Part shown: piece by piece, positions 1 through 55,779 of the stretch
Layout of the letters: every line of letters starts with the position of its first letter
Numbering within the stretch: position 1 is the stretch's first letter
From: a bacterium
Lineage (GTDB): Bacteria > Patescibacteriota > Minisyncoccia > Phycocordibacterales > UBA12088
Direction: 5' to 3'
NCBI GenBank assembly: GCA_003252295.1
Contig: QKEV01000003.1
Location: forward strand, 128,701 to 192,700
Length of the DNA: 64,000 nt
The notes under the pieces: model-generated
The model's database searches: none
Seen by the model: only the letters and a program-made list of their open reading frames with translations
What the model was told of the DNA's origin: nothing
Position numbers and translations under genes: made by a program

Positions 1-3000
1 TCGTGAAGCAGGTGGTCTTGAAACAGTAACGACGACGCTCACTGATCAGGCATGGGATACAACGGTGAGTGAAGCAGGGTTGTTCTCAATTGATGGTACC
101 GATACAACAGTTACTCTTTCAGAAGCAGGTCACTACCTTGCACTTTACAACCTTGGTATCCAGGTAACCACTGGTACCCAGAAGGGAAGTACGCATGGTT
201 TTCTTGATGTAAACGGTTCGCAAAGTCCGTATGGTCGTTCGAGTTGTTATATAGAAAATCAGACAGGACAAACAAAGTGTTGGATGTCTGGTGCTGCTAT
301 TATTGCGACTGCTGCAACGAACGAAACACTCAAGGTGCAGGCACAACGAAAGGATGATAATACACTCAGTCTTCGACGTATGAGTGGAGAAAGTGGTTTT
401 ACAATTTTGCGACTCGATGATGATTGGGAGTATGCACGAATACGTGAAGCGGGAGGTGGACAGGCGTTCAATAGTGCTACGTGGGCAACGGTAACACTTG
501 ATACCGAGGATGAGCTCGATGCTGGGTACAGTCATGCAGCAGGAGTAGTAACACTTGCAGATCCAGCTCGGTACCTGGTTACAACGAATGTTGAGTTTTA
601 CTCAACAGCAGGAGCAAAGAATAGGCTCAATGCAACTCGTCTAACTCTTGATGGTGCTGAGGTGAATGGTACCCGAGTAACGGCACTCATGACAGGAGAC
701 AACAGCTCGGTGTACTCTGTCGCATCATATGTGGGTATCATTGAAACAACAGCTACAAACCAGGTACTCACCCTAGAGGGTTCATGTATTGGTGAGACTT
801 GCAGTAAGGTTACAAATACTGCGAATCAAACGGGTATAACTATCGTGAAGCTTCCGAGCACCGTTGAAGTTGTTGGAGTGACTGAAGCAGGAGGTGGACA
901 GCAGGTCGACACAACAAGTGATCCAATTACCTGGGATACAAACAGCTTTATTGATACCGCAGCATTTTCTCACTCAACCTCACTCAACACCTCACAGGTA
1001 ACGGTATTGCAAGATGATGACTACCTATTCTTGAGTACTTTCTATAATTCACATAATACACCTGCGACCGTGATACTCGATCCCCACTGGGAGTGGCGAG
1101 TGAATGGCAGTACATTGCTTCCATACGGAAGCTTCAGTTACGTAAACCGTGGTGACGATAGTACTAACGGTGCGTGGCATTCAGGTGCATCGGGTGGTGC
1201 TATTTTCACATCGCTCACAACAAATGATTACGTTGAGGTGGTAAATACTGAGGAGAGTACAGGCACCTACACTGATCCAACATTCCAAGCAAACCTCATG
1301 GGGTTGCAAGGTTTACGTATTTCAACACTCGAGGAACCAGACATCACGGTGAGTGCTTCGGGCACACAGCAGACAACAGTCACCATTCCTACAGCAGATG
1401 CCTACCTTGGTGGAGCGTTCGTGCTCACTGCAAACAATTCGTTTCCAACTGAGACTGTTGAGTCAATCACTATTACTGAGAATGGTACCGTTGATGCACA
1501 GAATGATCTCTCAAACATTCGTCTCTTTTATGACTTAAGTACGACGACACCCTACGACTGTAGTACAGAAACGTACGATGGTACAGAGGAGCAGTACGGC
1601 GCCACAGCGAGTGCCTTTTCTGCAGCAAATGGTTCAGCAACGTTTACTGATTCTGTTGTTGCTTCAAGTACCCAAACCATATGTGTTTACGTAGTGCTCG
1701 ATGTTGATGATACAGCATCAGTTGGTGAGACTATTGAGGTAGAGATTACTGACCCATCAACAGACGTGGTGCTCGGTGGTGGTCCTGTTGGACCAAATAC
1801 AGCAGTGCTTTTGGACGGTACCACAACATTGCAAGATGATAAACTCACGCAGATACACTACCACTGGAGGAATGATGACGACACAGAGGCACTGGCAACA
1901 TCGGCAACAGGTGGTACTGAGGATACCGTACTCTCTGACTTGCCAAAAAACAACGAAAAGAGACTTCGTTTTGAAGTTTCAAACGAGGGAACTATTTCTT
2001 CTCCTGCAACACAATTCCTGCTTGAGTATGCGACACGTACTACGAGCTGTGCGGCTGTCTCGTCTGGGTGGACAGATGTTGGGATTGCTGGTGGAGCATG
2101 GGATTTGTTTGATAGTAGTAATCTTACCGATAGTGATGACACAACAAACATTGCACTTGCTACGGGAGGTGTGACGGATGAGAACACGACGTTCCTCACA
2201 CCAAATGGTGGAGTAAAGGATACGAGCTCACTCACGAGTGCTATCACACTCACTAGTACAGAGTTTGTTGAACTCGAGTACTCGATCATTGCTACCGATG
2301 TTGCTTATGACGGAGAGAGTTACTGTTTCAGGGTGACTGACAACGGAACACCACTGCCTGACTATCAGGTGTATCCGGAAGTCTCCATTGCAGCAGATGT
2401 GCTCGTCTCTGGTCTCGGTTCCCATACAGCAACAGTTGCTGCTTCAACATCGGATTTTTACATAGGTGGTAGCTGGTCAGTTGTCGACCAATCTGGAAGT
2501 CGAGATGTTACATCGATCACCTTGAACGAGACGGGAAGTGTTGATGCACTGAATGATATCTCAAACATTCGCCTCTTCTACGAGCTCGACACGAGTGTGC
2601 CGTATGACTGTAGTACGGAAACGTACGATGGTACGGAAGAACAGTACGGTGCTACTTCGAGTGCCTTCTCAGCAGCGGATGGTACAGCGACATTTTCTGA
2701 AACAGTGGGTATTTCTACCACTGAGACACTCTGTCTTTATGCTGTTGTTGATATCGATGGTACTGCTTCCGATGGTGACACGTTAGCACTTGAAATAAGT
2801 AATCCGGGAACGGAAGTCGTTGTCTCAACAGGGTCAGTAAATCCAAATGTCCCTGTGGGCCCTACTGGTTCAACAACTATCCAGAAGGCAGTGCTTGAGC
2901 AATCACACTACCACTGGCGGAATGATGATGGTACTGAAGCAAGTGCAACGAGTGCTACGGGTGGTGCGGAAGATACGGCAATTACTAACGTTAAAAAGAC

Positions 3001-6000
3001 GGAAACGCAGCGACTTCGCCTTGAGGTGAGTAATGAGGGTGGCACCTCAACAGATCCTTCCACGTACACACTGCAGTACGCGGAGTCATCAGGCTCCTGT
3101 AGTGCCTCAACCGGATGGGTGACGGTGGGTGCTGTGGGTGGTGCCTGGGCAATGAGTGACTCGGTAAACCTCACCGACGGCAACGATACGACGAACATCG
3201 CACTTGCAACAGGAGGTGTGACCGATGAGAATACGACCTTCCTCACACCAAATGGTGGGGTGTTAGATCTATATGCAACATCGAGTATTCTCACACTCTT
3301 GAACTCTCATTTTCTCGAGCTTGAGTACGGTATTGAGGCAACATCATATGCTGATTTTGGTACAACGTACTGCTTCAGGGTCCTTGGTGATGGTACAGAT
3401 GTGACAACGTACGCATCCTACCCACAGGCAACTATTCGGCAAAATCAGGATTTCTACATTCAGCGGGGTTCAACAAATATTCCAAACAGTGTTTCGAGTG
3501 TCACCATTGCTGCGGGAACTGACTATATTGCTCCGAGTGATGCATCGAAGGCGTTCATTCGCATCACCAATACGATGCACACTGGTGCGGGAGCAACCAC
3601 GGGAGGAGGTGCCCAGAATGCTGACAGTGTTACCACGTACATCAGTGATCCTGAGAACATTACCTCATCGGTAACCTTCAGTCGTACAGGAACATCGAAC
3701 TCTACGCAGATATACTGGGAAATCATTGAGTACACGGGACCAGTTGGAGGTGACAATGAGATGGTTGTGAGAGGTGTGCAGTCATACACTACAGGTGCAA
3801 AAAGCTTGACTGAAAATATAGCGGTCACCGGTGTCACTGATGATAATGATGTGGTGGTGTTCCTCACGGGGCAGAGCACACCAGAGGCTGCCACTACTGA
3901 GTATGAGACAGGTCTCTTTACCACTGACTGGGACGGAACTGCGGGGGAAGTGATACTTGAGCGTAATTCATTCGGAAGTGGTGCAGGTAACGCTGCTCAA
4001 GTGAGTTTTGCTGTAGTTGAGTTTACTGGCAGCAACTGGAAGACACAGCGAACAGAACATACGTACAATGCTGTCGGTACGACAGAAACCGGAACAATAT
4101 CGACCGTGAATGATGTTTCGCGTGCATTTCTCCATACGCAGCATAGGACGGATCAAGGCACGGTAGCTGATTATGGTCACCTCGTGTGGCTTTCGGGTGC
4201 GAGCACTGTTTCGTTTGCCTTGAACACTCAGGCATCAAGTCCTACCACACATACCTCAGTGGCTTGGGTTATAGAGAATACCCAAACGAACGGTATACCT
4301 ATGGCGGTAACGAGGAGTAATGGTTCACAAACCTCAGGTGGTGTAGAACCTTCCATTTACTCTATTGCTATTGGTAAAACTCTTGATGATATAGACGTGT
4401 CATCTATATTCACGACCATGTACTCAAATGGAGCTGATCTGGTACATCCGCACGCGATCATGGGTGCTACCATTGCTTCAACGACGCACTATGAACTGTG
4501 GATCTCAGATACTGGTTCATCACGAGCATATCGAACTGAAATAGTTGAATGGCCAACAGCAACACTTGCTGTACGGCAGAACTACTATCGTTTCTATGTT
4601 GATAACGATGCACTTGATCCGACTGATGCATGGCCGGCAGGTGCTGTTGATTTGGGGGAGAACGCAGCAATCACAGGACTCGACACACCACCTTCGAGCG
4701 GTGAACACTTGCGTCTACGCATGTCTCTAAATGTTTCCGGTGCGAACTTTTCTGCAGGACAGGGACAAGCGAAGCTTCAATACGGGGTCCGAGAGACAAG
4801 TTGTGGTGCAATAGCAATGTGGCACGACATGGGTGATATTGGATCAAGTACGGCAGTGTGGCGTGGGTATGATGGTACGCCGGTTGATGGAACAGCGCTT
4901 TCAACAAACCCTCCTACCGCTGGCGACCTCAATCTTTCAGTATCTGATATTGCAGGTACCTATGAGGAAGAGAACCTCACCGTGGCAAATCCATACAAGA
5001 TATATATCGGTGATGATGTTGAGTACGATTGGCACCTCGAGGCAAATGATGTGACTGATCTTACGAGCTACTGCTTCCGTATGGCATGGAGTGATGATGC
5101 TCCTATGGATGAGTACCTCTACTATCCGACAGTGACTATGGCAGGTTTTGAGGTAGAGCAACAAGATTGGCGCTGGTACAACGACGAGACCTCGATTACA
5201 CCTACCGTGGCGCTTGCGGCATCGAACACTGCACCTGTAAACATTGCCTACGGTGATCCATTGAAACTCAGGATACTCCTTGAAGAAATTGCTGGACGAG
5301 ACGGACAGAATGCCAAGTATAAGCTGCAGTGGTCTGAGTACTCTGATTTCAGTGTGGTGACTGATGTTGAAGATATGGACACCTGTGCCGTGGGTTCTGA
5401 GTGGTGCTACTTTGATGGGGCAGGTACCGAAGGGGCAACCATTACTGATAGTGTGCTCGAAGGAGCTGATAGCTGTGTAGCAAGTGTTGGGAGTGGATGT
5501 GGAACGCACAACGAAATGCCGTACGCACCTGATATTGTCGGTGAAGTAGGAACCACATCTACTGATAGTGTTGGTACGACGGTGACACTGCAGCACACGT
5601 ACGATGATCCTGTGTTCATTGTTGAGAGCATTGGTGGAGATGCGACAGGGGACACTGCAAATGCACCTGCGGTTGCCGTAATTACTGCTACCACTACTTC
5701 GAGTTTTACGGTTCGTATTCAAGAACCGGACAATGAGGCAGATGATCATGGTGAAGAGCTCGTTGGGTACTTCGTCATGGAGCGTGGTGCATACCAACTT
5801 CCCGATGGTAGGAGGATAGATGCTGACACCATGGATACTGCGCAGTACTACGGTAATGCAGTTAGTGGTGCGACAGATGATACGTGCAGCTTTACGCAAA
5901 CCTTTAGCACGGTACCTGTCGTCCTTGCTGCGCTTCAGAGCAACAATAATGTGAGTATTCCTGATTTCCTTACTGTTTCAAAGGCGCTCATTACTGTAGA

Positions 6001-7081
6001 TGACTTTGCTTGCTCGCTTGAAGTTCCTGATGGAGAGACGAATACACCAACAGATAGTGAGACTATTGGATGGATAGCACTTGATGGAGGAGTGTTTGCA
6101 AATAATGGTATTGCGCTTGAGGCAACCACGACGAGTGAATCGGTGACCGGCTGGACCGACACTCCTTGGTATGAACAGCTCTTCACGCAGCTATTTACAG
6201 GTGGTCCCGGCATTGTCGCTACGAAACAGACAAGAAATGGTGCCGAGGGTGGTTGGGTACGGTACGATAATGAGGACTTCAATTCGGTGCAGATGGCTAT
6301 CGATGAGCGTGATGACGGGGAACGTACACATACCACTGAGCGTATCGGCTACATTGCTTTTGCGGAAAGTGGTGTACTCTACCGAACAGGAACATCAAAC
6401 TTTACCTTTAGTGCAACTGCAGTGACCGAGTTTGAGTTTACCCTCGTGCACAACAATGCTCGTCCAAACGTAACGTACTTCTTTAGACTCTATGACGTGA
6501 ACAGTGATGAAGCGGTTGCAACTTCCACAACGAGTGTGTACCCATCACTCTCTACTGAGGGTGCGTCACTGTCGTTTAGTATTGGGGGAGTTGATTCTGG
6601 GGTAACAACAGAGGGGTTTGCTATGGATGTGACTACTACTGCCACGTCGGTACCGTTTGGTTCTCTTTCGCTTGGGGTACCAAAAAATGCAGCACAGCGC
6701 CTTACGGTATCAACTAATGCTACCGAAGGGTACCAGGTACTTGCCTACGAACAGCAAAACCTCATCAGTGGTGGGGGAACCATAGAAGATGTATCGGGAA
6801 CAAATGCTGCTCCAACCGCATGGTCTGTTGGTTGCCCTGCTGGTGCAACGAGTTGCTATGGGTACCATGCCGGAGACAATACTATGGAAGGTGGTTCAAA
6901 TAGGTTCCTCTTGGATGACACCTTTGCGGCGTTTACCGGCATCATGGAAGAGGTTGCCTATAGTTCAGGTCCCGCTTTGAACGAGTCAACAGACATTATA
7001 TATAGAGTAGAGGTGGGTGCTGGCCAACCGGCAGGAAGGTACCAGAGTAAGGTTACATATATCATAGTCCCCGTCTTCTAA
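1..7081 (+). CDS. Giant secreted/surface adhesin-like protein, 5'-partial (more than 2338 aa). It has a repeated YxWRNDDG...RLRxxVSNxG...YCFR module, tandem H-type-lectin-like domains and a C-terminal WxL-like domain ending TYIIVPVF.
   Basis: The reading frame stays open from nt 2 upstream of the listed GTG at 65, so the gene starts outside the window. There is an internal 1.05-kb duplication and a Thr/Ser/Gly/Asp-rich composition. The C-terminal 150 aa are paralogous to the C-termini of the ORFs at 16452, 24905 and 52612. Confidence 0.85.
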   Translation, partial: REAGGLETVTTTLTDQAWDTTVSEAGLFSIDGTDTTVTLSEAGHYLALYNLGIQVTTGTQKGSTHGFLDVNGSQSPYGRSSCYIENQTGQTKCWMSGAAIIATAATNETLKVQAQRKDDNTLSLRRMSGESGFTILRLDDDWEYARIREAGGGQAFNSATWATVTLDTEDELDAGYSHAAGVVTLADPARYLVTTNVEFYSTAGAKNRLNATRLTLDGAEVNGTRVTALMTGDNSSVYSVASYVGIIETTATNQVLTLEGSCIGETCSKVTNTANQTGITIVKLPSTVEVVGVTEAGGGQQVDTTSDPITWDTNSFIDTAAFSHSTSLNTSQVTVLQDDDYLFLSTFYNSHNTPATVILDPHWEWRVNGSTLLPYGSFSYVNRGDDSTNGAWHSGASGGAIFTSLTTNDYVEVVNTEESTGTYTDPTFQANLMGLQGLRISTLEEPDITVSASGTQQTTVTIPTADAYLGGAFVLTANNSFPTETVESITITENGTVDAQNDLSNIRLFYDLSTTTPYDCSTETYDGTEEQYGATASAFSAANGSATFTDSVVASSTQTICVYVVLDVDDTASVGETIEVEITDPSTDVVLGGGPVGPNTAVLLDGTTTLQDDKLTQIHYHWRNDDDTEALATSATGGTEDTVLSDLPKNNEKRLRFEVSNEGTISSPATQFLLEYATRTTSCAAVSSGWTDVGIAGGAWDLFDSSNLTDSDDTTNIALATGGVTDENTTFLTPNGGVKDTSSLTSAITLTSTEFVELEYSIIATDVAYDGESYCFRVTDNGTPLPDYQVYPEVSIAADVLVSGLGSHTATVAASTSDFYIGGSWSVVDQSGSRDVTSITLNETGSVDALNDISNIRLFYELDTSVPYDCSTETYDGTEEQYGATSSAFSAADGTATFSETVGISTTETLCLYAVVDIDGTASDGDTLALEISNPGTEVVVSTGSVNPNVPVGPTGSTTIQKAVLEQSHYHWRNDDGTEASATSATGGAEDTAITNVKKTETQRLRLEVSNEGGTSTDPSTYTLQYAESSGSCSASTGWVTVGAVGGAWAMSDSVNLTDGNDTTNIALATGGVTDENTTFLTPNGGVLDLYATSSILTLLNSHFLELEYGIEATSYADFGTTYCFRVLGDGTDVTTYASYPQATIRQNQDFYIQRGSTNIPNSVSSVTIAAGTDYIAPSDASKAFIRITNTMHTGAGATTGGGAQNADSVTTYISDPENITSSVTFSRTGTSNSTQIYWEIIEYTGPVGGDNEMVVRGVQSYTTGAKSLTENIAVTGVTDDNDVVVFLTGQSTPEAATTEYETGLFTTDWDGTAGEVILERNSFGSGAGNAAQVSFAVVEFTGSNWKTQRTEHTYNAVGTTETGTISTVNDVSRAFLHTQHRTDQGTVADYGHLVWLSGASTVSFALNTQASSPTTHTSVAWVIENTQTNGIPMAVTRSNGSQTSGGVEPSIYSIAIGKTLDDIDVSSIFTTMYSNGADLVHPHAIMGATIASTTHYELWISDTGSSRAYRTEIVEWPTATLAVRQNYYRFYVDNDALDPTDAWPAGAVDLGENAAITGLDTPPSSGEHLRLRMSLNVSGANFSAGQGQAKLQYGVRETSCGAIAMWHDMGDIGSSTAVWRGYDGTPVDGTALSTNPPTAGDLNLSVSDIAGTYEEENLTVANPYKIYIGDDVEYDWHLEANDVTDLTSYCFRMAWSDDAPMDEYLYYPTVTMAGFEVEQQDWRWYNDETSITPTVALAASNTAPVNIAYGDPLKLRILLEEIAGRDGQNAKYKLQWSEYSDFSVVTDVEDMDTCAVGSEWCYFDGAGTEGATITDSVLEGADSCVASVGSGCGTHNEMPYAPDIVGEVGTTSTDSVGTTVTLQHTYDDPVFIVESIGGDATGDTANAPAVAVITATTTSSFTVRIQEPDNEADDHGEELVGYFVMERGAYQLPDGRRIDADTMDTAQYYGNAVSGATDDTCSFTQTFSTVPVVLAALQSNNNVSIPDFLTVSKALITVDDFACSLEVPDGETNTPTDSETIGWIALDGGVFANNGIALEATTTSESVTGWTDTPWYEQLFTQLFTGGPGIVATKQTRNGAEGGWVRYDNEDFNSVQMAIDERDDGERTHTTERIGYIAFAESGVLYRTGTSNFTFSATAVTEFEFTLVHNNARPNVTYFFRLYDVNSDEAVATSTTSVYPSLSTEGASLSFSIGGVDSGVTTEGFAMDVTTTATSVPFGSLSLGVPKNAAQRLTVSTNATEGYQVLAYEQQNLISGGGTIEDVSGTNAAPTAWSVGCPAGATSCYGYHAGDNTMEGGSNRFLLDDTFAAFTGIMEEVAYSSGPALNESTDIIYRVEVGAGQPAGRYQSKVTYIIVPVF
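1340..3440 (+). repeat. In-frame tandem duplication (two units of about 1.05 kb) inside the first giant CDS.
   Basis: Protein segments NDLSNIRLFYDLSTTTPYDCSTETYDGTEEQYGATASAFSAANGSATF...HYHWRNDDDTEA...YCFRV and NDISNIRLFYELDTSVPYDCSTETYDGTEEQYGATSSAFSAADGTATF...HYHWRNDDGTEA...YCFRV are near-identical and about 350 aa apart. Confidence 0.8.
5578..6095 (+). other. Two tandem H-type-lectin-like domains within the first giant protein.
   Basis: Segments HTYDDPVFIVESIGGD...ITATTTSSFTVRIQEPD...VGYFVMERG and FTQTFSTVPVVLAALQSNNNVSIPDFLTVSKALITVDDFACSLEV...ETIGWIALDGG fit the H-type lectin pattern (F..PP.V.vsl...d....v.v.nvt.tgF.i....w......i.WiA). I could not run an HMM search to confirm. Confidence 0.45.
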
Positions 7082-7375: not shown

Positions 7376-7480
7376 GAGAATAATGTATGTGTTCAAAAAA
7401 TATACAGATTTCCTGTTGTGCTATTTATTACCATCTTGCATGGTATTATCAGTAGGCGGTACACTAGTGGTACTAGCTAT

Positions 7481-12262: not shown

Positions 12263-13654
12263 ATGCTTTTTGCTGTACTGACAGCAGTGCTTTTTGGGTT
12301 GGGTGGTTTGTATGTTTTTGCCCAGGATGGAGAGGAAAACTATGAAGAAGCGCTCGGAGTGGTACCAGAAGAGGAAGTAGATGAGGTTATGTCAGATGAC
12401 ATGACTGAAGTGGTAGTTGCTGATGAGGTGTCCGAAGAAGAAGCTGAAGTGGATACAGAAAAGACGCCAACCTATACAGTCTTTTCAGATGCAAAGTTCA
12501 CTGTTACTCCAGTTGTTGCAAATGAGAAGGCAAAACCAAGGGACATCATTAAAAAGGAACTTATTGTTACCAACAATACAGACCATCGCCTCGATCTTTA
12601 TATTTCTGTAGAAAATATTGACCCAAATGAAGGCGCACAGGAATTTGTAAGTCCCGGTGTCTCTGATCTTTCGACATCACTTGCAAACTGGGTGGAAATA
12701 ACACGTGGTGTCATAGAACTTGAAGCGGGTGAAAGTCGAAAGATACCGTACCTTATACATGTGAACCTTACAGCACAACCAGGAAGCTACTATGCTCGGA
12801 TACAGTTCAAAGAGGGTCCAAAACGTGCCGAGGCAACAGCGAGTGCGGAAGGTTCTGCACTCATGCTCAATCTTGAGGTTGAAGATGATGCTATTGAGCG
12901 CTTGCAACTCGGGAACTTTTTGAGTGAGGATAGTGTCATTTTTGGAAATAGTGTCTCATTTTCGTACCTTTTAGAGAATGTTGGCAATAGGCTCATAGAA
13001 CCTCGAGGATCTATTCGTATTTTTAACCGTCGCGGGGAAGAAGTGGGCAGTGTACCACTCAATGCTGATGGAGATGAGATAACTCCTGAAAATAAGGAGC
13101 AACTTGCAGCTGTGTGGAACGCGACCGGACGTTTCGGTAAGTACAAAGCGTACCTTGACCTTGAGTACGGAGAGAGTCAGCTTGCGAGTGTACAGGATAC
13201 GGTGTACTTCTGGGTGTTTCCATGGAAAGAGATACTCACTGCTCTTTTAGGGGTACTCCTCCTTGGTGTAGTTGGTACCTACATAGTACATATGCGATCA
13301 ATAGCTCGACCGGTGCCAGCACGAAGCAGGCAGATGCAGCATGCAGGGCAGTCAGGTGGACACAGGGGTGTGGTACCTTCTCCACAACAGGTTCGTCACC
13401 CAACTATCACACAGGTGATGCCGGCAGTAGCTCCTGCTCCTGTGCAAGCAACACCAGCAAAGAGTTTGAAGCACCTCGACATACTTCATGCAAATATGAA
13501 AAAACCTCAGACAGCAGTGCAGGGTGATACGGTGCGTTTAGGAAGTGTTTCTGAGAAGCGTGGCGGACAGGTTGTTACACTTGGACGAAACGTTCCTCAG
13601 GAAGAAGTTAGGGTAAATGGTAATGTTGTGCAGCTTTCATCACATCGTAAATAG
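12263..13654 (+). CDS. Cell-surface protein, DUF916/DUF3324-like (CscA-like) paralog 1. Signal peptide, two beta-rich domains, a C-terminal TM anchor and a Pro/Gln-rich cytoplasmic tail.
   Basis: Signal peptide MLFAVLTAVLFGLGGLYVFAQ. The block ANWVEITRGVIELEAGESRKIPYLIHVNLTAQPGSYYARIQF is shared with the ORFs at 13680, 17729 and 54694. TM helix ILTALLGVLLLGVVGTYIV lies near the C-terminus. Confidence 0.7.
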   Translation: MLFAVLTAVLFGLGGLYVFAQDGEENYEEALGVVPEEEVDEVMSDDMTEVVVADEVSEEEAEVDTEKTPTYTVFSDAKFTVTPVVANEKAKPRDIIKKELIVTNNTDHRLDLYISVENIDPNEGAQEFVSPGVSDLSTSLANWVEITRGVIELEAGESRKIPYLIHVNLTAQPGSYYARIQFKEGPKRAEATASAEGSALMLNLEVEDDAIERLQLGNFLSEDSVIFGNSVSFSYLLENVGNRLIEPRGSIRIFNRRGEEVGSVPLNADGDEITPENKEQLAAVWNATGRFGKYKAYLDLEYGESQLASVQDTVYFWVFPWKEILTALLGVLLLGVVGTYIVHMRSIARPVPARSRQMQHAGQSGGHRGVVPSPQQVRHPTITQVMPAVAPAPVQATPAKSLKHLDILHANMKKPQTAVQGDTVRLGSVSEKRGGQVVTLGRNVPQEEVRVNGNVVQLSSHRK

Positions 13655-18817: not shown

Positions 18818-19192
18818 ATGTTTTGGGTACATTCTACGCATGAGATAAAAGCACTGCTTGTTGCATCACTGCTCTTATTTTCTGGTTTTGCTTTTACAAT
18901 AGGTAGCTCATGGCATGCTACCGCTACTCATGCACTGTTACTCCCAGCGAACTCAGTTGGAGTATTTGCAGGTGTGGAGGAGAATGAAGTGAATGCACTT
19001 GCTACACAACTTGACGCACGAGAACGTGCACTCAATGCACGGGAAGAAGCGCTTCTTACTGCTCAGAGTTCAACAACTGATGAGCTTACCTTATTGCTCT
19101 TGACACTCTCTGGTTTTGGGATGTTTGGACTCATACTCTTGAATTTTTACCTTGATGGACGAAGGAGGATGTCTATTGCACCTGTAGTGTAG
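18818..19192 (+). CDS. Small membrane protein: N-terminal TM, coiled-coil, C-terminal TM. Hypothetical.
   Basis: 124-aa ORF. It fills an otherwise empty 475-bp gap. It has two hydrophobic helices and an alanine/glutamate-rich heptad segment. Confidence 0.35.
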   Translation: MFWVHSTHEIKALLVASLLLFSGFAFTIGSSWHATATHALLLPANSVGVFAGVEENEVNALATQLDARERALNAREEALLTAQSSTTDELTLLLLTLSGFGMFGLILLNFYLDGRRRMSIAPVV

Positions 19193-24874: not shown

Positions 24875-24904
24875 GTGCGTGCACAGGGGTTGTTCGGTGT
24901 AGAA

Positions 24905-48389: not shown

Positions 48390-49856
48390 ATGGGCAAAAA
48401 AAGGTACTTCATCTCGCTCTTCATAGGTGTATTTGTAACAGCGCTGACCATGAGCGTGGGAGACCTTTTTGCTGATGATCCACCAGAGATTACAGGAGTA
48501 ACAGTAGAGAGTACGTCTAACAATCAGGCGGTTGTGACCTGGTATACAGACAAGGCTTCTGATTCAATTGTTAATTTTGGAAAACAGCCACACTATGGCA
48601 TTATGCGCACCCCAGGTTTTGATAAGGTAGTGCACTCTGTCGTACTTGATGATCTGGATGCGTCAACGTACTACCATTTTCGAGTATCAAGTACAGATGA
48701 ACTTGGTAACCAGGGTGTTTCAGGAGATTATGTTTTTAGGACAGGTGGTTTTTTAGATATTGAAAACATACAACAGGTAAGTTCTGAAGAACAACAGATG
48801 CTTGTTGGACAGGCAAAAGATGTTATAGCTCAAATCACTGATCCTGCCGCGCTTGAGCTCGTGCAGACTGAGGTGCAGGCACAGGCACAGGATCTTTTAC
48901 GACCCCCTGAGGTCATTGGCTTACCACGAGCAATCGATATTACCTCAACAGAGGCAAAGATTATTTGGGCAACAAGCAGGGATTCAAACTCAATCGTTAA
49001 CTATGCGACTGAGGCTCAGTATGATGGTACCAACTATGCACAAACCGTTGCACAGCTTGATGACTCTACAAAAGACCATGAAGTGTTGCTCACAGGACTC
49101 AATCCAGCAACAACGTATCATTTCATGGTTGAGTCAGAAGATGAGTTTGGTCTTTCTGGAGCAGGAAGCGACGTTACCTTTACGACAAAATCTCCTATTC
49201 CTACCATCGAAGATGTGCAGATTATTAAGATCGAGGAGGACTCAGCAACATTTGCCTGGTCTACAGATATTCCAGCTGCTGGTGCTGTGATATATGAAAA
49301 CTCAGTAACAGGTGAAATACGCTCTGAGGGAAGTCCTGAATTTTTGACGACACAGACGGTGCGTCTCACTGACCTTACACTTGGAGTGACATATATAGCG
49401 ACAGTGCAAGCTGAAAATAGCCAAGGTGAGATGCGAGAGAGTGAACCAATCAGTTTTACCACTATTCGTGATGAGGAACCACCGATCATTAGTCGTGTGA
49501 ATAATGAATCAACACTGTACCCAGGTGCAGAGACACGAATTCAAACGATAGTATCTTGGGGTACTGATGAACCAAGCTACTGTAGGTTGTACTATAGCCA
49601 AGGTCTTGGAGGTGCTGAAAATGCTACTGAAATGGAAGAAAATACAGAGCCATCACTTGAGCATGTGCGTGTAATCACCGAGTTCTTGCCGTCAACGGTA
49701 TACAAGTACTGGGTGGCATGTAAAGATCGTTCTGGAAATGAGGAGGCATCAGATGACTTTGTGCTCTTTACCCCTGAAAAGGAAAAGAGCATCATTGATA
49801 TCATTCTTGAGAACTTCGAGGGAACCTTTGGTTGGGTAAAGAATATTGGAGGATAA
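48390..49856 (+). CDS. Secreted protein with four FN3-like (purple-acid-phosphatase N-terminal-type) domains.
   Basis: Signal peptide MGKKRYFISLFIGVFVTALTMSVG. Repeats VTVESTSNNQAVVTWYTDKASDSIVNFG...TYYHFRVSSTDELGN...FRT, ITSTEAKIIWATSRDSNSIVNY...TTYHFMVESEDEFG...FTT, and two more. Confidence 0.7.
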   Translation: MGKKRYFISLFIGVFVTALTMSVGDLFADDPPEITGVTVESTSNNQAVVTWYTDKASDSIVNFGKQPHYGIMRTPGFDKVVHSVVLDDLDASTYYHFRVSSTDELGNQGVSGDYVFRTGGFLDIENIQQVSSEEQQMLVGQAKDVIAQITDPAALELVQTEVQAQAQDLLRPPEVIGLPRAIDITSTEAKIIWATSRDSNSIVNYATEAQYDGTNYAQTVAQLDDSTKDHEVLLTGLNPATTYHFMVESEDEFGLSGAGSDVTFTTKSPIPTIEDVQIIKIEEDSATFAWSTDIPAAGAVIYENSVTGEIRSEGSPEFLTTQTVRLTDLTLGVTYIATVQAENSQGEMRESEPISFTTIRDEEPPIISRVNNESTLYPGAETRIQTIVSWGTDEPSYCRLYYSQGLGGAENATEMEENTEPSLEHVRVITEFLPSTVYKYWVACKDRSGNEEASDDFVLFTPEKEKSIIDIILENFEGTFGWVKNIGG

Positions 49857-49857
49857 T

Positions 49858-51309
49858 ATGCGATCGATCATTCAAACAAAAGACGTTGACGTAACGTACA
49901 ATAACGGAAAATCAAATGAGTTTAAGGCACTCAAAGGAGTGACTTGTGAGATTGCAGCACGTGAGTACATCATCTTTTTTGGTCCTTCTGGATGTGGCAA
50001 ATCAACACTCCTCTACTCTATTTTTGGCGTACTTGAGCCATCATCAGGCGACGTGATTGTGAAGGGTGATTCAATATATAAGTATGAGCCAATGGATCTA
50101 GTGATGTACCAGAGAAAAACGATGGGTATCATGTACCAATCCTTCAACCTTATTCCATCACTTACAGTTCTTGATAATGTCCAGTTGCCACTTATCTTTG
50201 CTGGTTTTCCACCTTCAACACGTGAGCGTACAGCTATGGATCTGCTCGATAGGTTTGGTATTGCGCATGTTGCACATAAGCGCCCTGGTTTGCTTTCAGG
50301 AGGTCAGCAACAACGTGTGTCAGTTGCAAGAAGTTTAGTGAATGATCCAGAGATTCTCATTGCTGATGAGCCAGTCGGTAACCTTGATTTCGTTTCAGCG
50401 GAAGCCGTTATGAATACGCTTCAGGAAATTAACATGAACGACAAGAAGACGGTTCTCCTCGTTACACATGATGCTAAGTATTTACCATATGCTCATCGAG
50501 TCTTTTACCTTGATTACGGAAGGATTGATCGTATTGTTCCAAACCCAGAAAAGCGGCAAATTATCAAAGTCCGCCCTGGTGAGACGATCGTTACCGAGCT
50601 TGAGCAGCTCGCACGTATTTATCCGTACGATTCACCTGAACAGTTGCGGGTGAAGAGTATTGTAAACTTCCTTACTCAAAACCTTTCTTATGATCAGATA
50701 GTGCGTCTTGAAAAAATGACACAGCATGTGATTGAAGGGGTATTATCCAAAGAACAGTTTGGTGCACTCATGACCACTGATTATGAAGCAGGAGGATGTG
50801 GTATTAAACCGAAGCAAGCAAAAGAGATGACTGAGAAAATGTACACCATACTTGAACAATCAGAAGATGTGGTGCGCTTTAGACGTGTTTCAAGAGATCA
50901 AAATACAATTGATCTTGCTCGTCTTGAACTCATTAAACATATCCATAAGTATATGGTAGAAGAGTGTCATGTCGAACTTGATTCAAAACTGCTTGAACAG
51001 CTCACAAAGATGGTTACCGTTCGTGTGTTTGGATATATTACGCGAGAAGAATTCCACAGGCAGTTACGTATGCCGGCAGACGAAGGTGGTGGTGGTTTTG
51101 ACATATACCTTGCAGCAGATCTCTCACGATACCTTGAGAAACTTATTGCTCAAGGGGTATCACATTTCCAACAACATCAAGAAGCACGTCCTGATGCAAC
51201 AAACCTCCATGCTCAGCAGGCCAAGAAGTTTGAAGATATGGATAAGGGTATATTATCGAAACTTACTCACCTTTTTTCCAAGAAAAAAGAAAAAGGGGAT
51301 AAAAAATAG
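49858..51309 (+). CDS. ABC transporter ATP-binding protein, MacB/LolD/FtsE-like, with an unusual C-terminal extension of about 250 aa.
   Basis: Walker A GPSGCGKST, signature LSGGQQQRVSVARS, Walker B ILIADEP. GGAGG Shine-Dalgarno 5 nt upstream of the ATG at 49858. The gene starts 1 nt after the previous stop. Confidence 0.9.
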   Translation: MRSIIQTKDVDVTYNNGKSNEFKALKGVTCEIAAREYIIFFGPSGCGKSTLLYSIFGVLEPSSGDVIVKGDSIYKYEPMDLVMYQRKTMGIMYQSFNLIPSLTVLDNVQLPLIFAGFPPSTRERTAMDLLDRFGIAHVAHKRPGLLSGGQQQRVSVARSLVNDPEILIADEPVGNLDFVSAEAVMNTLQEINMNDKKTVLLVTHDAKYLPYAHRVFYLDYGRIDRIVPNPEKRQIIKVRPGETIVTELEQLARIYPYDSPEQLRVKSIVNFLTQNLSYDQIVRLEKMTQHVIEGVLSKEQFGALMTTDYEAGGCGIKPKQAKEMTEKMYTILEQSEDVVRFRRVSRDQNTIDLARLELIKHIHKYMVEECHVELDSKLLEQLTKMVTVRVFGYITREEFHRQLRMPADEGGGGFDIYLAADLSRYLEKLIAQGVSHFQQHQEARPDATNLHAQQAKKFEDMDKGILSKLTHLFSKKKEKGDKK

Positions 51310-51315
51310 TGAACC

Positions 51316-52521
51316 ATGAGGATAGCAGACATTGCCAGACTTTCAACACGTATGTTTAAGACAAACCCGGCTCGTACCTGGTTGACTATTTTAGGTATGG
51401 GTGTTGGTACTGGTGCTGTGGTAACGCTCGTAGGTCTTGGTTTTGGTTTGCAAAATATTATCCTTGAGCAGATTGTCCTTGGAGATACATTGCGATCACT
51501 CAATGTGACACCTCCTCCAGCGAGAAGTGTGACATTGAATCCACAAACGGTGCAGGAGTTTTTCGAAATTGAGCGAGTAAAGGATGTTGCACCACTCGCT
51601 AGTTTTGAAGCAAACATTACATTTGAAGGGTATACCGGAAGTACCTTCTTACAGGGTGCAAACCCAAACTACTTTGGCTACACGGGTACCAAAGAAATAG
51701 CAGGTAGGTTGTTTACAGAAGATACGATTGATGAGGACAGAAACAGTGTCATTCTGTCGAGTGCTATGCTCAAACTCTTTGAAGTTGAGGATCCTGAAGA
51801 GGCTATTGGCAAACAAGTTTCCTTTAATGTGTTTGTTTCCACTGAGGATGGTGGCACTATTGAGACTGAGTTTAAAAAACGGTACACAGTGGTCGGGGTG
51901 AGTAGTGAGGAGAGTAGTCCGGATGCAATACTTTTACTCGATGAGCTTACAAGTCAGATTGTTGTTGATGAGTATGAACGTGCGCAGGTTTTAGTTGATA
52001 GTGCAGACTATCTTGATCAGGTTACCGAGGCGATCATTGAACGAGGTTTCGGTGTAACAGCACTCAGTAAAACTGTAGATCAAGCAAAGAAGATCTTTCA
52101 AGGTATTCAGGGAGTGCTTGCTGTATTCGGAGGTATCGCACTTGTGGTGTCTGCGATTGGTATGTTCAACACTATGACCGTTACCCTTCTCGAGAGAACT
52201 GGTGAGATCGGTATTATGCGCACACTTGGTGCTAGTTCAAACGATATTAAGATACTTTTCATTGCTGAAGCTGTTGTTGTGGGATTCTTGGGAGGTGTTG
52301 TTGGAATTATGATTGGAGTAGGTATCGGTTTTTCATTGAACACTATGGTAAATATCTTGGCTACATCAAATGGTGGAAAGGCTGTTGCTTTGTTTGCGTA
52401 TCCACCTATATTCATCATGTTTATTGCAGGATTTTCAGCAGTTGTTGGGTTTTTGACTGGAGTTTTTCCGGCAACTCGAGCTGCAGCACTAAACCCACTT
52501 GACGCAATTAGGTATAAATAG
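51316..52521 (+). CDS. ABC transporter permease, FtsX/MacB family (4 TM plus a periplasmic domain).
   Basis: N-terminal TM, large extracytoplasmic domain, C-terminal IGIMRTLGASSNDIKILFIAEAVVVGFLGG...FPATRAAALNPLDAIRY typical of the FtsX domain. Confidence 0.85.
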   Translation: MRIADIARLSTRMFKTNPARTWLTILGMGVGTGAVVTLVGLGFGLQNIILEQIVLGDTLRSLNVTPPPARSVTLNPQTVQEFFEIERVKDVAPLASFEANITFEGYTGSTFLQGANPNYFGYTGTKEIAGRLFTEDTIDEDRNSVILSSAMLKLFEVEDPEEAIGKQVSFNVFVSTEDGGTIETEFKKRYTVVGVSSEESSPDAILLLDELTSQIVVDEYERAQVLVDSADYLDQVTEAIIERGFGVTALSKTVDQAKKIFQGIQGVLAVFGGIALVVSAIGMFNTMTVTLLERTGEIGIMRTLGASSNDIKILFIAEAVVVGFLGGVVGIMIGVGIGFSLNTMVNILATSNGGKAVALFAYPPIFIMFIAGFSAVVGFLTGVFPATRAAALNPLDAIRYK

Positions 52522-52600: not shown

Positions 52601-52611
52601 AAAGGTTTTGC

Positions 52612-54492
52612 ATGACTGAGAACATACGACACATAGTACAAAAAAGAGGTAAGGTAGCGCTTGTTGCGTTGCTTTCTGTTGTTTCAGTATTCATCCTCAG
52701 TGTCTTGTTTGATACACAGGAGATGAGTAGTGTTCACAGTGTTCAGGCAACAAGTACCGCAACGACGACGGTACGAGTTTTGAATACTCCACCTGCATGG
52801 ACAACAACTGCATATGAAAAGTATGATTCATCAACAACCACTCCTACTAACGTAGGAACATCAACTGTATGGACTGCTCAGGCAACTGATAGTAATGGTG
52901 AGCCATACTATCTACTTGTTTGCATGTCGAGTTCGACACCAATTGCTATAGGTGGACAACCACCTGTTTGTGGTGGGGGAAGTACTGATCAGTGGGCTAT
53001 TTCTGCGCTTACACCGAGTGGTACCTTTGCGGAAGTTTCCACAACAACACAGGTATCTTGGAATGAGAGGAATCCTTGGTACGCTTACATTTGTGATAGT
53101 AATGCTGGTGATCCATCATGTAACGATATTATGTACAATGGTCTCGATGATGGTACAGCAGACCCTCAAGATTCACCGTTTATAGTGAACCACCCAGCAA
53201 GTTTTACCGTTGCAGCTGATGATTCTCCAACACTTCCAGGTGATACGGTGACCTGGACTACAACTGCAACTGATACCGTTGATACACTTCGTGGTACTGA
53301 CTCACTGCAACTCTTTGTCTGTAAATCAAATGATTTTGATGTTTCAATACCCGGATGTGGTCCTTCAGGTGCATGGGCAACAAGTACTCTCTTTGCTGCA
53401 GGTAACCCATCAACCTCTACAGTCCTCGCTATTCCACTTCAAGATACTGACCATGATGCCTACGTATATGTAGTTGATGAATTTAATCTCGCTGCAACAG
53501 GAGCTGCTCAAGGTTCAAATACAACACTAACGGTGAGCAATGCAACACCATACGTAGCAAGCTCTACGATAACTGTATATGACGTTGGTATGGTTGATAC
53601 TAATCTTAGACTTACGACTGAAGAGGGTGAGACTGAGAATTTTGTGATGCGTTTTGAGGTTGTTGATGATAATAGCTGTTTAAATGCTGCAAGTGGTAAT
53701 GAGATTACTGATGTTGATATTAATGTATTTCGTTCAGGAGTAGGATTACTAGACAGTACTGGTTGTGATGAGGCTGGAGAATACAATGCTAACAACTGCT
53801 ACACGGACACAACTAATGCTTCTAACTGGAGTCCGACATGTACCCAGGTACCAGGTGATTGTTTAGGTGCTACACAAGCGAGTGTGGAATGGGAGTGTAC
53901 GTTCCCACTTTGGTACATAGCTGATCCAACCGATGTAGGTAGCTTGTACGCAGGTGAGGATTGGCGTGGCGCTGCACGTGCAACTGATGATGATGCTGCA
54001 ACTACTGCATACTACTCAGTCGATGATGAAGCTGCTGACGGTGCTTCACAGTTGCTACAGTTCTTATCATTTAGGGCAACAGGTTCACCAATTGCTTATG
54101 GATCTCTTGAGCCAGGTGACTTCAATCCTCTTGAGTTCGCTACAACGACACTCTATGCTACAGGCAATACTGGTCTTGATCAGTACCTCTCAGGTGATGC
54201 GATGTGTGTGACCTATCCAACCTGTTCTAATGACCCGACAGATACCATTTATGTGCCGTATCAGCACTACTCACTCACCGAAGGAGCAGCCTTTGCTGCT
54301 GGAACACAGCTTTCTACAAGTACAGCACCTGCATACGTTGATGTGACAGTGCTCAAGACCACTGCTACATCAACACCGACGAGTGATGATACCTTCTGGG
54401 CTATTCAGGTACCAAGCAGTATTACTTTTGCCGGTGATTACATAGGACGCAACTACATTGATGCGGCAGTATCACCTAGTGGTGAATGGTAG
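52612..54492 (+). CDS. Secreted 626-aa protein whose C-terminal half is paralogous to the C-terminus of the 5883-aa giant, including the WxL-like domain.
   Basis: Signal anchor VALVALLSVVSVFILSVLF. Segments LWYIADPTDVGSLYAGEDWRGAARATDDD and IAYGSLEPGDFNPLEF...TFWAIQVP align with the giant's EIQYFAEPTDAGTYAGEHWEASLFVIDTT and INYGTLGIGEDTGAV...TLYWGIYVP. Confidence 0.7.
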   Translation: MTENIRHIVQKRGKVALVALLSVVSVFILSVLFDTQEMSSVHSVQATSTATTTVRVLNTPPAWTTTAYEKYDSSTTTPTNVGTSTVWTAQATDSNGEPYYLLVCMSSSTPIAIGGQPPVCGGGSTDQWAISALTPSGTFAEVSTTTQVSWNERNPWYAYICDSNAGDPSCNDIMYNGLDDGTADPQDSPFIVNHPASFTVAADDSPTLPGDTVTWTTTATDTVDTLRGTDSLQLFVCKSNDFDVSIPGCGPSGAWATSTLFAAGNPSTSTVLAIPLQDTDHDAYVYVVDEFNLAATGAAQGSNTTLTVSNATPYVASSTITVYDVGMVDTNLRLTTEEGETENFVMRFEVVDDNSCLNAASGNEITDVDINVFRSGVGLLDSTGCDEAGEYNANNCYTDTTNASNWSPTCTQVPGDCLGATQASVEWECTFPLWYIADPTDVGSLYAGEDWRGAARATDDDAATTAYYSVDDEAADGASQLLQFLSFRATGSPIAYGSLEPGDFNPLEFATTTLYATGNTGLDQYLSGDAMCVTYPTCSNDPTDTIYVPYQHYSLTEGAAFAAGTQLSTSTAPAYVDVTVLKTTATSTPTSDDTFWAIQVPSSITFAGDYIGRNYIDAAVSPSGEW

Positions 54493-54522
54493 TACTAGGA
54501 CATATTACATAGAACTAATTTT

Positions 54523-54693: not shown

Positions 54694-55779
54694 ATGTTAC
54701 AACGGCTCGCAGTAGTAGCTGCCTTGTTAGTAATGCTTGTTAACGTGAATGTGGCTCACGCTGGTTTTGGAATAACGCCACCATACGTTCGTAACGATAA
54801 ACTTACTCAGGGCTCAACGTACACACAGGAGATAATTCTTGTGCGTGGTGACCCTGTTGAGGACCTGAAAGCTGAGATCACGGTTAACGTTCCAGGTATT
54901 GAGGACTGGATCACTATTGATAAGGGAAATGAATTTTTGCTTCCAGCAGGGGCTAAGCAGGTACCTATGCAGGTAACCGTTAGTGTCCCTGATAATGCGG
55001 CATATGAACGTTACCAAGGAAATATTCGTATACGCACCCTTTCACCTGACCCAGCAAGTGGTGTGTCTATCGCACTTGGTGCACAGATAGATGTTGATTT
55101 GCGTGTTGTTGATGAGATACGTGACTTTGAGGTAAAGCGTGTGCAAATGAGTGAGACTGAGGAGCCAACACGTCTGTGGTGGCTTGAGTTTCCAGGAAGG
55201 ATACAGTTTTCGATGGGTATAGAGAACACTGGTAATGCTCCAGTTGCCCCATCAAAGGTGCAGTTGGATATATATGATAGGAAGGGGAATATTGTACTTG
55301 AAACAACATATAATACGAATGAACTTGATGAGATCCTACCTTTCGAGACGCGTGAGATATATGCATTCATCCCTACTCGACTGCCTTCTGGCGCGTACCT
55401 CGTAAAGTACTCTATTTTTAGGTATGACGATGATATTAAACGTACTGGTGAACTAACGCTTTCTATACTGCCATCAGGAACACTGAGTTCGTACGCTGGG
55501 TACGGTTTTGAGGGACTTTCCATGTCTGACAAAATGACTATTTTTGTTCCGATTGGTCTCTTACTCCTCATACTCATACTGACCATTACGATTTTGTCTT
55601 TGCGAAAAAAGAATAAGAAACAGCGACGACATACACCGCGAGGGAAAGGAGGACATGAAGATTATGACGCATCTTACTACCGTGATCCGAGAACGCCACA
55701 ACGCAGGGCGCCACCACAGAAAACACAGTATGGTGGTAGTCATGAGGTTGTTGACCTATCTCGTACAAGGAGACGGTAG
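54694..55779 (+). CDS. Cell-surface protein, DUF916/DUF3324-like paralog 4, with a C-terminal TM anchor and a basic tail.
   Basis: Signal peptide LAVVAALLVMLVNVNVAHA. Conserved EDWITIDKGNEFLLPAGAKQVPMQVTVSVPDNAAYERYQGNIRIRT. TM helix IFVPIGLLLLILILTITILSL, then KKNKKQRRH. CATAAAT box 5 nt before the ATG. Confidence 0.7.
   Translation: MLQRLAVVAALLVMLVNVNVAHAGFGITPPYVRNDKLTQGSTYTQEIILVRGDPVEDLKAEITVNVPGIEDWITIDKGNEFLLPAGAKQVPMQVTVSVPDNAAYERYQGNIRIRTLSPDPASGVSIALGAQIDVDLRVVDEIRDFEVKRVQMSETEEPTRLWWLEFPGRIQFSMGIENTGNAPVAPSKVQLDIYDRKGNIVLETTYNTNELDEILPFETREIYAFIPTRLPSGAYLVKYSIFRYDDDIKRTGELTLSILPSGTLSSYAGYGFEGLSMSDKMTIFVPIGLLLLILILTITILSLRKKNKKQRRHTPRGKGGHEDYDASYYRDPRTPQRRAPPQKTQYGGSHEVVDLSRTRRR

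What the first reader, a model, noticed from the sequence alone, without database searches (positions are those of the whole stretch)
1..55779. Csc/WxL-like cell-surface complex: four DUF916/DUF3324-like TM-anchored paralogs plus four proteins sharing a WxL-like C-terminal domain
ORFs 12263-13654, 13680-15011, 17729-18799 and 54694-55779 are clear paralogs. Each has a signal peptide, a conserved W(I/V)...E.....P..I.V...A.PG.Y.A block, a second beta-rich domain and a C-terminal TM anchor. That is the architecture of CscA (DUF916+DUF3324) proteins of Lactobacillales WxL loci. Four other proteins share a roughly 150-aa C-terminal domain: ORF1 1-7081, 16452-17630, the 5883-aa giant and 52612-54492. 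Within it, (V/I).(F/Y)G.L....... is followed by a W-x-(L/V/I) motif (HWGLT, AWSVG, YWGIY, FWAIQ). The ends TLTYIATPVF and KVTYIIVPVF resemble the terminal LTW.L...P of WxL domains. The genes are interleaved as in Csc clusters. WxL/Csc systems are known from low-GC Gram-positive bacteria, where they bind peptidoglycan non-covalently and are implicated in polysaccharide binding. Here the same C-terminal module is attached to giant lectin-bearing adhesins. That pairing would be novel.
Basis: partly seen in the sequence, partly recalled or inferred. Interest (0 to 1): 0.75.

Follow-up and report, generated by a model that had tools for sequence, protein, structure and literature searches.

The report
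WxLIP-like surface anchoring modules in Parcubacteria
An uncultivated ultra-small bacterium (Parcubacteria) carries distant relatives of the membrane-anchored partner protein of Gram-positive WxL surface complexes, encoded next to small and giant secreted proteins whose shared tail domains are new, pilin-like folds rather than WxL domains; this may be how these bacteria hold giant adhesins on their surface.

Summary
Partly right. The four membrane-anchored paralogs are real. They are distant but significant homologues of WxLIP/CscA (DUF916+DUF3324+TM): the profile hits solved EfmWxLIP1 at E=6e-6, and hhalign against Firmicutes WxLIP gives 95% probability over both Ig domains. The fourth paralog (54694-55779) belongs to a divergent sister family.

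The cluster logic does mirror WxL loci. A small and a giant secreted protein share an unanchored C-terminal domain and sit beside a WxLIP-like membrane protein. This is conserved across Parcubacteria: 25 of 27 informative metagenome loci. A third domain type shows the same arrangement in a distant relative.

Lectin plus WxL pairing is already known in CscC proteins.

Verdict: a new variant of a known kind. The proposed mechanism (retention by beta-strand complementation) is inferred, not shown.

The parts
2..7081 (+). Large secreted protein, cut at the window edge (at least 2359 aa). Its last ~170 aa (6569-7078) are a 'cprC' C-terminal domain.
   Evidence: The 16452-family profile matches aa 2190-2359 at 7e-25. 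It is 40% identical to the 16452 C-terminus. No Pfam hit.
12263..13654 (+). A1: WxLIP-like protein with a signal peptide, two Ig-like domains, one TM helix and a 126-aa basic cytoplasmic tail.
   Evidence: The A3-orthologue profile matches at 7e-44. TM segment at 13214-13270. Tail pI 11.8.
13680..15011 (+). A2: WxLIP-like paralog with two C-terminal TM segments.
   Evidence: Profile match 2.4e-64. TM segments at 14511-14567 and 14847-14903.
15065..16192 (+). Secreted Ig (He_PIG) plus FIMAH-domain protein. It is a lineage-specific insertion in the module.
   Evidence: Pfam He_PIG 2.4e-13. The gene is absent at this position in L013, L017 and L018.
16452..17630 (+). Small secreted two-domain protein. 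The N-domain spans 16569-17027 and the cprC C-terminal domain spans 17028-17627. It has no C-terminal anchor.
17729..18799 (+). A3: WxLIP-like protein of 356 aa. It is the most conserved paralog and lies immediately downstream of the small cprC protein.
   Evidence: PF06030 16.1 bits, below the cut-off. The family profile matches EfmWxLIP1 at 6e-6. hhalign against WxLIP gives 95%. Synteny is shown.
18818..19192 (+). Small two-TM protein conserved after A3.
   Evidence: TM scan. Genes of 111-130 aa occupy the same position in L013, L017 and L018. No family hit.
19275..20132 (+). FGE-sulfatase-domain protein conserved in the operon.
   Evidence: Pfam PF03781 2.4e-21. Conserved position in L013, L014 and L017.
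20125..21996 (+). Protein with the same N-domain as 16452 (20230-20712) but a C-terminal dockerin in place of cprC.
   Evidence: The N-domain profile matches at 1.5e-14. Dockerin_1 4.7e-5.
24875..42526 (+). Giant 5883-aa secreted protein with Ig_Rha78A_N and DUF2341 domains. A 'gC' C-terminal domain spans about 41858-42517.
   Evidence: Pfam results. The gC profile matches at 6.6e-56. BLASTP against 52612 gives 2e-9.
49846..52521 (+). LolD/MacB-like ABC ATPase plus a MacB_PCD/FtsX permease. The pair is conserved directly upstream of the gC-small/A4 pair.
   Evidence: NCBIfam results. Same order in L011 and in seven inspected metagenome loci.
52612..54492 (+). Small (626 aa) secreted protein carrying the gC C-terminal domain (53692-54489).
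   Evidence: The gC profile matches at 3e-111. 37 homologues, none with a Pfam domain. No Pfam hit.
54694..55779 (+). A4: divergent WxLIP-like protein with one TM helix. It always follows the gC-small gene.
   Evidence: hhalign against the A family gives 76%, E 2e-5, and against WxLIP 45%, E 2e-4. Adjacency holds in L011, in L019-L021 and in 15 metagenome loci.
55786..56973 (+). DUF4215 plus dockerin-like protein that follows A4.
   Evidence: Pfam results. Paralog of 20125, BLASTP 2e-29. Conserved position.

Best explanation
The window is part of a Parcubacteria (CPR/Patescibacteria) cell-surface gene island. It contains two copies of a three-part module.

(1) One or more proteins stay in the cytoplasmic membrane through C-terminal TM helices. 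They expose two tandem Ig-like domains homologous to WxLIP/CscA, the WxL-interacting protein of Firmicutes.

(2) A small secreted protein and (3) a giant secreted protein share a module-specific C-terminal beta-sandwich of about 170-260 aa. It sits at the extreme C-terminus and has no TM helix or LPXTG anchor. The two domain families are 'cprC' (ORF1 and 16452) and 'gC' (giant and 52612).

Shown here: the homology of the anchored proteins to WxLIP; the two domain families; their strictly C-terminal position on cargo of very different size; and the conserved gene neighbourhood.

Inferred: the WxLIP-like protein holds the small and giant proteins at the cell surface by binding their shared C-terminal domain. 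The likely mode is beta-strand insertion or complementation, as proposed for WxLIP and WxL. The giant proteins would then project DUF2341 and Ig-type domains outward for attachment.

The C-terminal domains are not WxL-family members. They are new families with a pilin-like Ig fold.
For: WxLIP homology.

Topology: an N-terminal signal, C-terminal TM segments, an acidic ectodomain and a basic tail.

The cprC domain:
- It has 1064 representatives at E<=1e-3. In the 150 listed it ends at the protein's C-terminus in all but one, on proteins of about 350-400 aa and of 1000-3350 aa.
- The same N-terminal head domain occurs fused either to cprC (16452) or to a dockerin (20125). This suggests cprC is an interchangeable anchoring module.

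Synteny:
- The same gene order as the window occurs in four independent genomes.
- Of 27 metagenome loci chosen only by cprC and with enough flanking DNA, 25 carry an A-superfamily gene within 4 kb upstream or 1.5 kb downstream.
- The gC-small gene is followed directly by A4 in every locus seen.

A third case: in locus L016 a 2408-aa DUF2341/LamG protein and two 200-aa proteins share yet another C-terminal domain (4e-45). They are followed by an A-like gene.

Known systems: a WxL-WxLIP complex has been solved as 9i25. The strand-insertion model is proposed in PMC10599100.
Against: - No binding was tested, and no complex prediction was possible with these tools.
- The AF2 model of cprC folds as a complete, confident domain (pTM 0.88), with no obvious need for a donated strand.
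- In 15 of 27 loci the cprC-small gene lies near an A4-type gene only, not an A1-A3-type gene. A strict cognate pairing of A1-A3 with cprC is therefore not general.
- These islands are dense in surface-protein genes (cohesins, dockerins), so adjacency could reflect general clustering.
- The conserved WxLIP motif NQIDKxxxYFDLK is not conserved in the CPR proteins; the alignment has a gap at YFDL.
Confidence: 0.5

Rival explanations
1. It is a true, highly diverged WxL/Csc system. The C-terminal domains are homologous to WxL domains that have lost the tryptophans, and they bind peptidoglycan non-covalently, stabilised by the WxLIP-like proteins.
For: - The partner protein is a WxLIP homologue.
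- The small-plus-large architecture with a strictly C-terminal domain matches WxL clusters (PMC9772566).
- hhalign, though not significant, aligns four motifs in the same order: ldFG with vpFG; VQVxDxRGxxxGWxLxV with LRVxTNAxNGFSVTV; GA with GA; and Y.ttLTWxL..P with DYTATLTYIATPVF (WxL invariant residues).
Against: - Pfam WxL hits 0 of 49 members.
- hhalign gives P=0.05, probability about 1%, even with a richer profile of 151 sequences.
- Sub-threshold HMM hits to WxL proteins are a composition artefact, because an unrelated control domain gives the same enrichment.
- The W, D and R residues that define the WxL motifs are absent.
- A C-terminal G.Y..T.T. strand is common to many pilin-type Ig domains (own knowledge).
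Confidence: 0.15
2. It is a donor-strand-exchange fibre system of a monoderm bacterium. The conserved 16452-type protein polymerises through its pilin-like C-terminal domain. Giant proteins with the same domain are incorporated as tip adhesins, as FimH and PapG are. The two-Ig WxLIP-like proteins act as membrane-anchored PapD-like chaperones or base anchors.
For: - 16452 orthologues are unusually conserved for a surface protein, at 44-74% identity.
- The layout of a lectin-like head with a C-terminal pilin-like domain parallels the FimH/PapG architecture (own knowledge).
Against: - The modelled domain appears complete.
- No N-terminal extension is evident; the mature N-terminus is modelled as a strand of the N-domain.
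- There is no usher or sortase gene in the window.
Confidence: 0.15
3. There is no specific partnership. The A proteins are independent membrane-anchored Ig adhesins. The shared C-terminal domains bind the wall, the S-layer or a host ligand directly. Co-location reflects only the clustering of surface genes in a CPR 'surface island'.
For: - The window is full of other surface-protein genes with their own anchoring system: TM-anchored cohesins and dockerin proteins.
- The type of A gene next to cprC-small differs between lineages.
- In L017 and L018 the large upstream protein lacks cprC.
Against: - The pairing recurs with three different C-terminal domain types.
- The gC-small and A4 adjacency is invariant.
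- The A proteins are homologous to a protein whose known role is to bind such a partner (PMC10599100).
Confidence: 0.2

Closest known systems
WxL/Csc clusters of Lactobacillales and Bacillales: CscA (WxLIP; PF06030 + PF11797 + TM), CscB (small WxL), CscC (large WxL), CscD (LPXTG)
   Same: - A membrane-anchored protein with two Ig domains, homologous to WxLIP.
- A small and a large secreted protein share a strictly C-terminal domain of about 170-200 aa and lack any covalent or TM anchor.
- The genes are interleaved.
- The large protein carries ConA-like/adhesin-type domains.
   Different: - The C-terminal domains are not PF13731 members by sequence, profile or structure search.
- Two, and elsewhere three, unrelated-looking domain types replace WxL.
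- There are up to three WxLIP-like genes per module instead of one, and two of them have a second TM segment and long tails.
- There is no CscD/LPXTG gene.
- The NQIDKxxxYFDLK motif is absent.
- The cargo proteins are giant (2,300-7,800 aa).
- The host is a CPR bacterium, not a Firmicute.
Donor-strand-complemented pilins: chaperone-usher subunits (CsuA/B, FimH/PapG pilin domains), TasA, archaeal threads and bundling pili, and TLP-1 fibrils (PDB 9ikk)
   Different: There is no usher and no evident N-terminal donor extension. The domain is modelled as complete. No sequence similarity is detectable. The partner is TM-anchored and homologous to WxLIP, not to PapD.
Cohesin-dockerin surface display
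   Same: It is a modular anchor-receptor logic: a TM-anchored receptor plus cargo bearing a C-terminal anchoring module. It is present in the same window and shares a cargo head domain with 16452.
   Different: It uses different folds and a different, calcium-dependent dockerin interaction. It is a separate system.

Membership tests
WxLIP / CscA (PF06030 PGBD + PF11797 HBD + TM) | DUF916/PGBD domain detectable | tested here: met
   The window proteins are below Pfam's cut-off (A3: 16.1 bits against 27.3). However, 15 of 41 family members hit PF06030, best 2.7e-7. The profile matches PDB EfmWxLIP1 at 5.7e-6. hhalign gives 95%. This is membership at superfamily level, not by Pfam's gathering score.
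WxLIP / CscA (PF06030 PGBD + PF11797 HBD + TM) | Second Ig domain DUF3324/HBD directly following | tested here: inconclusive
   None of 41 members hits PF11797. The hhalign alignment does run in the same order through the HBD region, to template column 279 of 355. hmmsearch shows a non-significant second stretch at the right place.
WxLIP / CscA (PF06030 PGBD + PF11797 HBD + TM) | N-terminal signal peptide and C-terminal TM helix | tested here: met
   The hydropathy scan finds both in all four paralogs. A2 and A3 have an extra TM segment.
WxLIP / CscA (PF06030 PGBD + PF11797 HBD + TM) | Conserved N-terminal motif NQIDKxxxYFDLK (PMC10599100) | tested here: not met
   In the hhalign alignment the CPR consensus VQPSt--IeE-------vDPG has a gap where YFDL lies.
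WxLIP / CscA (PF06030 PGBD + PF11797 HBD + TM) | Encoded in a cluster with at least two WxL (PF13731) proteins (cluster definition in PMC10599100) | tested here: not met
   No PF13731 protein was found in the window proteins scanned or among the homologues. My WxL HMM finds nothing in the CPR loci. Analogous small and large proteins with other shared C-terminal domains are present instead.
WxL domain (PF13731) | Match to the family HMM | tested here: not met
   No hit at E<=1 for 16452 or 52612, and none in any of 49 relatives. Genuine WxL controls score 33-134 bits.
WxL domain (PF13731) | Two Trp-x-Leu motifs in conserved context (Asp at W1-8, Arg at W1-6, GTxAG turn, C-terminal LTWxL..P) | tested here: not met
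The WxL invariant residues D135, R137, W144 and L146 have no counterpart. The positions that hhalign pairs with them read TNAxNGFSV and LTYIA.
WxL domain (PF13731) | Profile-profile or structural similarity to WxL | tested here: not met
WxL domain (PF13731) | Located at the extreme C-terminus of both small and large secreted proteins | tested here: met
   In the 150 listed representatives the domain ends at the protein's C-terminus in all but one (P0113). The window proteins behave the same way.
WxL domain (PF13731) | Non-covalent peptidoglycan binding | not testable with these tools
   This needs a binding assay with the recombinant domain.
Donor-strand-exchange pilins | Pilin-type Ig fold | tested here: met
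Donor-strand-exchange pilins | Incomplete fold with a groove filled by a donated strand, and an N-terminal donor extension | tested here: inconclusive
   The isolated domain is modelled as complete, with pTM 0.88. Model coordinates could not be inspected, and no multimer prediction was available.
Donor-strand-exchange pilins | Dedicated usher or assembly platform gene | tested here: not met
   No usher-like or sortase family appears in any window protein scanned.

The most novel reading that the evidence does not exclude
Parcubacteria may use a family of interchangeable C-terminal 'sorting/anchoring' domains (cprC, gC and at least one more). Each would be recognised by a WxLIP-like membrane receptor through strand complementation, to display or polymerise small conserved proteins and multi-thousand-residue adhesins. 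If so, this is a CPR-wide surface-attachment system, evolutionarily linked to Firmicutes WxL clusters on the receptor side but with novel pilin-like partner domains. It might be coupled to the adjacent MacB-type ABC transporter.
Probability: 0.3. Interest if true: 0.75.

Novelty: new variant of a known kind. Interest (0 to 1): 0.55.

Why it matters
CPR/Patescibacteria are thought to live attached to host cells. How they hold their giant surface proteins, and what these proteins bind, is largely unknown.

This finding offers three concrete leads:
- a conserved, testable receptor-plus-tail-domain module gives a handle on that question;
- it extends the WxLIP superfamily far outside the Firmicutes;
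- it defines at least two large unannotated domain families. One of them, cprC, has more than 1000 representatives at 50% clustering.

It also suggests that the WxLIP scaffold can partner with domains other than WxL. That bears on how WxL clusters themselves work.

Tried and rejected
- AFDB fold search: the library was unavailable.
- hhalign in global mode gave a nonsense alignment.
- Sub-threshold HMM evidence for a cprC-WxL link: the top three hits of the cprC HMM among 200 Firmicutes ORFs were WxL proteins. The unrelated N-domain control gave the same enrichment (Mann-Whitney 8e-6 against 2e-5), so this is a composition artefact.
- Looking for a solved WxL structure with single WxL sequences found nothing. 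A 13-sequence profile was needed to find 9i25_A.
- FGE substrate motif CxPxR: none in any window protein.
- Promoter and terminator scan of 11-25 kb: no enrichment, so operon boundaries remain undefined.
- Organism name for the window contig: not on record.
- The B. cereus 'legume lectin domain protein' in a WxL locus did not itself hit my WxL HMM. I therefore rely on PMC1534035 for the known lectin-CscC pairing.
Full report
**Origin and layout**

The window has about 45% GC. Almost all genes lie on the + strand. Homologues of its proteins come from Parcubacteria/Patescibacteria metagenome bins. It is a surface-protein island containing two giant ORFs, several cohesin and dockerin proteins, an ABC exporter, and the genes named in the finding.

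**The four TM-anchored paralogs**

Paralogy:
- A1 (12263-13654), A2 (13680-15011) and A3 (17729-18799) are clear paralogs, with BLASTP E-values of 1e-26 to 2e-41.
- A4 (54694-55779) is linked only weakly, at 8e-5 to A1.
- A profile of A3 orthologues alone recovers A1 and A2 but not A4.
- A five-member A4 family aligns to the A family by hhalign at 76% probability, E 2e-5. It aligns to Firmicutes WxLIP at 45%, E 2e-4.

Topology:
- All four have an N-terminal hydrophobic signal and C-terminal TM segments: one in A1 and A4, two in A2 and A3.
- All four have acidic ectodomains and basic tails.

Relationship to WxLIP/CscA:
- Pfam on the window proteins gives only a sub-threshold PF06030 hit for A3: 16.1 bits against a cut-off of 27.3.
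- 15 of 41 family members hit PF06030, best 2.7e-7. None hits PF11797.
- The family profile finds the solved EfmWxLIP1 (9i25_C, 9i1y_A) at E about 6e-6 over the PGBD.
- I collected nine genuine WxLIPs and 20 genuine WxL domains from Enterococcus, Melissococcus and Bacillus plasmids, and verified a sample of them against Pfam.
- hhalign of A3 orthologues against these WxLIPs gives 95% probability, E 3.7e-8, over 243 columns spanning both Ig domains. That A3 set excludes the window paralogs and the PF06030-positive members.
- The NQIDKxxxYFDLK signature of WxLIP is not conserved (motif from PMC10599100).

Conclusion: these are remote but real WxLIP-superfamily proteins.

**The C-terminal domains**

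The 16452 family has 747 homologues, none with a Pfam domain.
- Its profile matches the last 170 aa of ORF1 at 7e-25. It does not match the giant or 52612.
- The giant and 52612 share a different C-terminal region: BLASTP 2e-9, and profile 7e-56 and 3e-111.
- Between the two families hhalign gives P=0.04, or 0.008 with a richer 151-sequence profile. Controls give 0.37-0.46, so the link is marginal.

Against WxL:
- No Pfam hit in any of 49 members.
- hhalign P=0.048-0.09.
- The alignment does place four motifs in the same order.
- A sub-threshold HMM enrichment for WxL proteins proved to be a composition artefact.

A WxL chain is in the PDB as 9i25_A, found with a WxL profile at 2e-6.

**Structure of 16452**

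- AF2 models 16452 as two beta domains with pLDDT 89.6.
- The C-domain alone gives pLDDT 91.9 and pTM 0.88.
- TLP-1 is an environmental fibril assembled by donor-strand exchange (PMC11494351).

**Distribution and context**

- A two-sequence profile of cprC finds 1064 representatives at 50% clustering.
- In the 150 listed, the domain ends at the protein's C-terminus in all but one. The host proteins are about 350-400 aa or 1000-3350 aa.
- Four genomes share the window's gene order: [A1][A2][cprC-small][A3][small TM protein][FGE][N-domain-dockerin protein][HSP20][cohesin][giant DUF2341 protein].
- More distant lineages have [ABC][FtsX][gC-small][A4][dockerin][cprC-small].
- I retrieved 80 metagenome loci by cprC alone. 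Of these, 27 have at least 4 kb upstream and 1.5 kb downstream.
- 25 of those 27 carry an A-superfamily gene in that span: 15 of the A4 type together with gC-small, and 10 of the A1-A3 type.
- Loci retrieved by A4 all have gC-small immediately upstream.
- In L016 a 2408-aa DUF2341/LamG protein and two 200-aa proteins share a third C-terminal domain type (4e-45). They precede an A-like gene.

**Interpretation**

The receptor side of the Csc/WxL system is conserved in CPR. The partner domain is not WxL. It is a set of new pilin-like C-terminal domains.

The recurring arrangement of a small and a giant protein sharing an unanchored tail domain, next to a WxLIP-like membrane protein, argues that the system works like a WxL cluster. 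The cargo would be retained at the membrane and wall through the WxLIP-like protein, plausibly by strand complementation. This step is inferred. Three rivals remain open: true diverged WxL, a donor-strand-exchange fibre, and no specific partnership.

What is new is the lineage, the giant size of the cargo and the replacement of WxL by other domain families.

No paper in the searched library links DUF916 or WxL to CPR.

Noticed in passing
window 22989-24473, 57933-58970, 58948-60828 (+); 20125-21996, 55786-56973 (+); 61520-62260 (-): The window holds a full cohesin-dockerin set. There are TM-anchored cohesin proteins and dockerin-bearing proteins. One minus-strand protein has a cohesin-like N-terminus plus a dockerin, which suggests an adaptor.
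   Followed up: partly
window 16569-17027 and 20230-20712: The BslA/YweA/YcnI-like N-domain of 16452 recurs at the N-terminus of dockerin protein 20125 and of its orthologues. The same head domain therefore sits on two different anchoring modules.
   Followed up: partly
window 22484-22987: An HSP20/alpha-crystallin gene is conserved inside the surface-protein operon, between the dockerin and cohesin genes. It is also present at that position in L017 and L018.
   Followed up: no
window 19275-20132 (overlaps 20125-21996 by 8 bases): An FGE-sulfatase-domain protein with an N-terminal hydrophobic segment is conserved after A3 and the small two-TM protein (18818-19192). No CxPxR target motif occurs in any window protein.
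   Followed up: partly
window 49846-52521: A LolD/MacB-like ABC ATPase with a C-terminal extension of about 250 aa, plus a MacB_PCD/FtsX permease, always lies directly upstream of gC-small and A4 in related loci. This could be an export or assembly motor.
   Followed up: partly
window 16452-16570: The signal-peptide region of the 16452 family is unusually conserved (W26 invariant; G29 and P31 nearly invariant). This hints at a specialised processing or sorting signal.
   Followed up: no
L016 1383-9916: A distant CPR locus has a third C-terminal domain type, ending ...GxYxDTITYSCLxN and rich in Cys. It is shared by one 2408-aa protein and two 200-aa proteins, which lie next to an A-like gene.
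   Followed up: partly
window 24875-25900 and 7418-11284: Long, highly acidic, Glu-rich low-complexity stretches follow the TM segment of the giant protein. They also occur in the 1288-aa ORF 7418-11284, which has no signal peptide and no family hit.
   Followed up: no
window 62441-63697: A glutaredoxin/thioredoxin-like domain is fused to a multi-TM region, resembling DsbD/CcdA-type disulfide-reductant transfer. It lies next to Cys-rich surface proteins.
   Followed up: no
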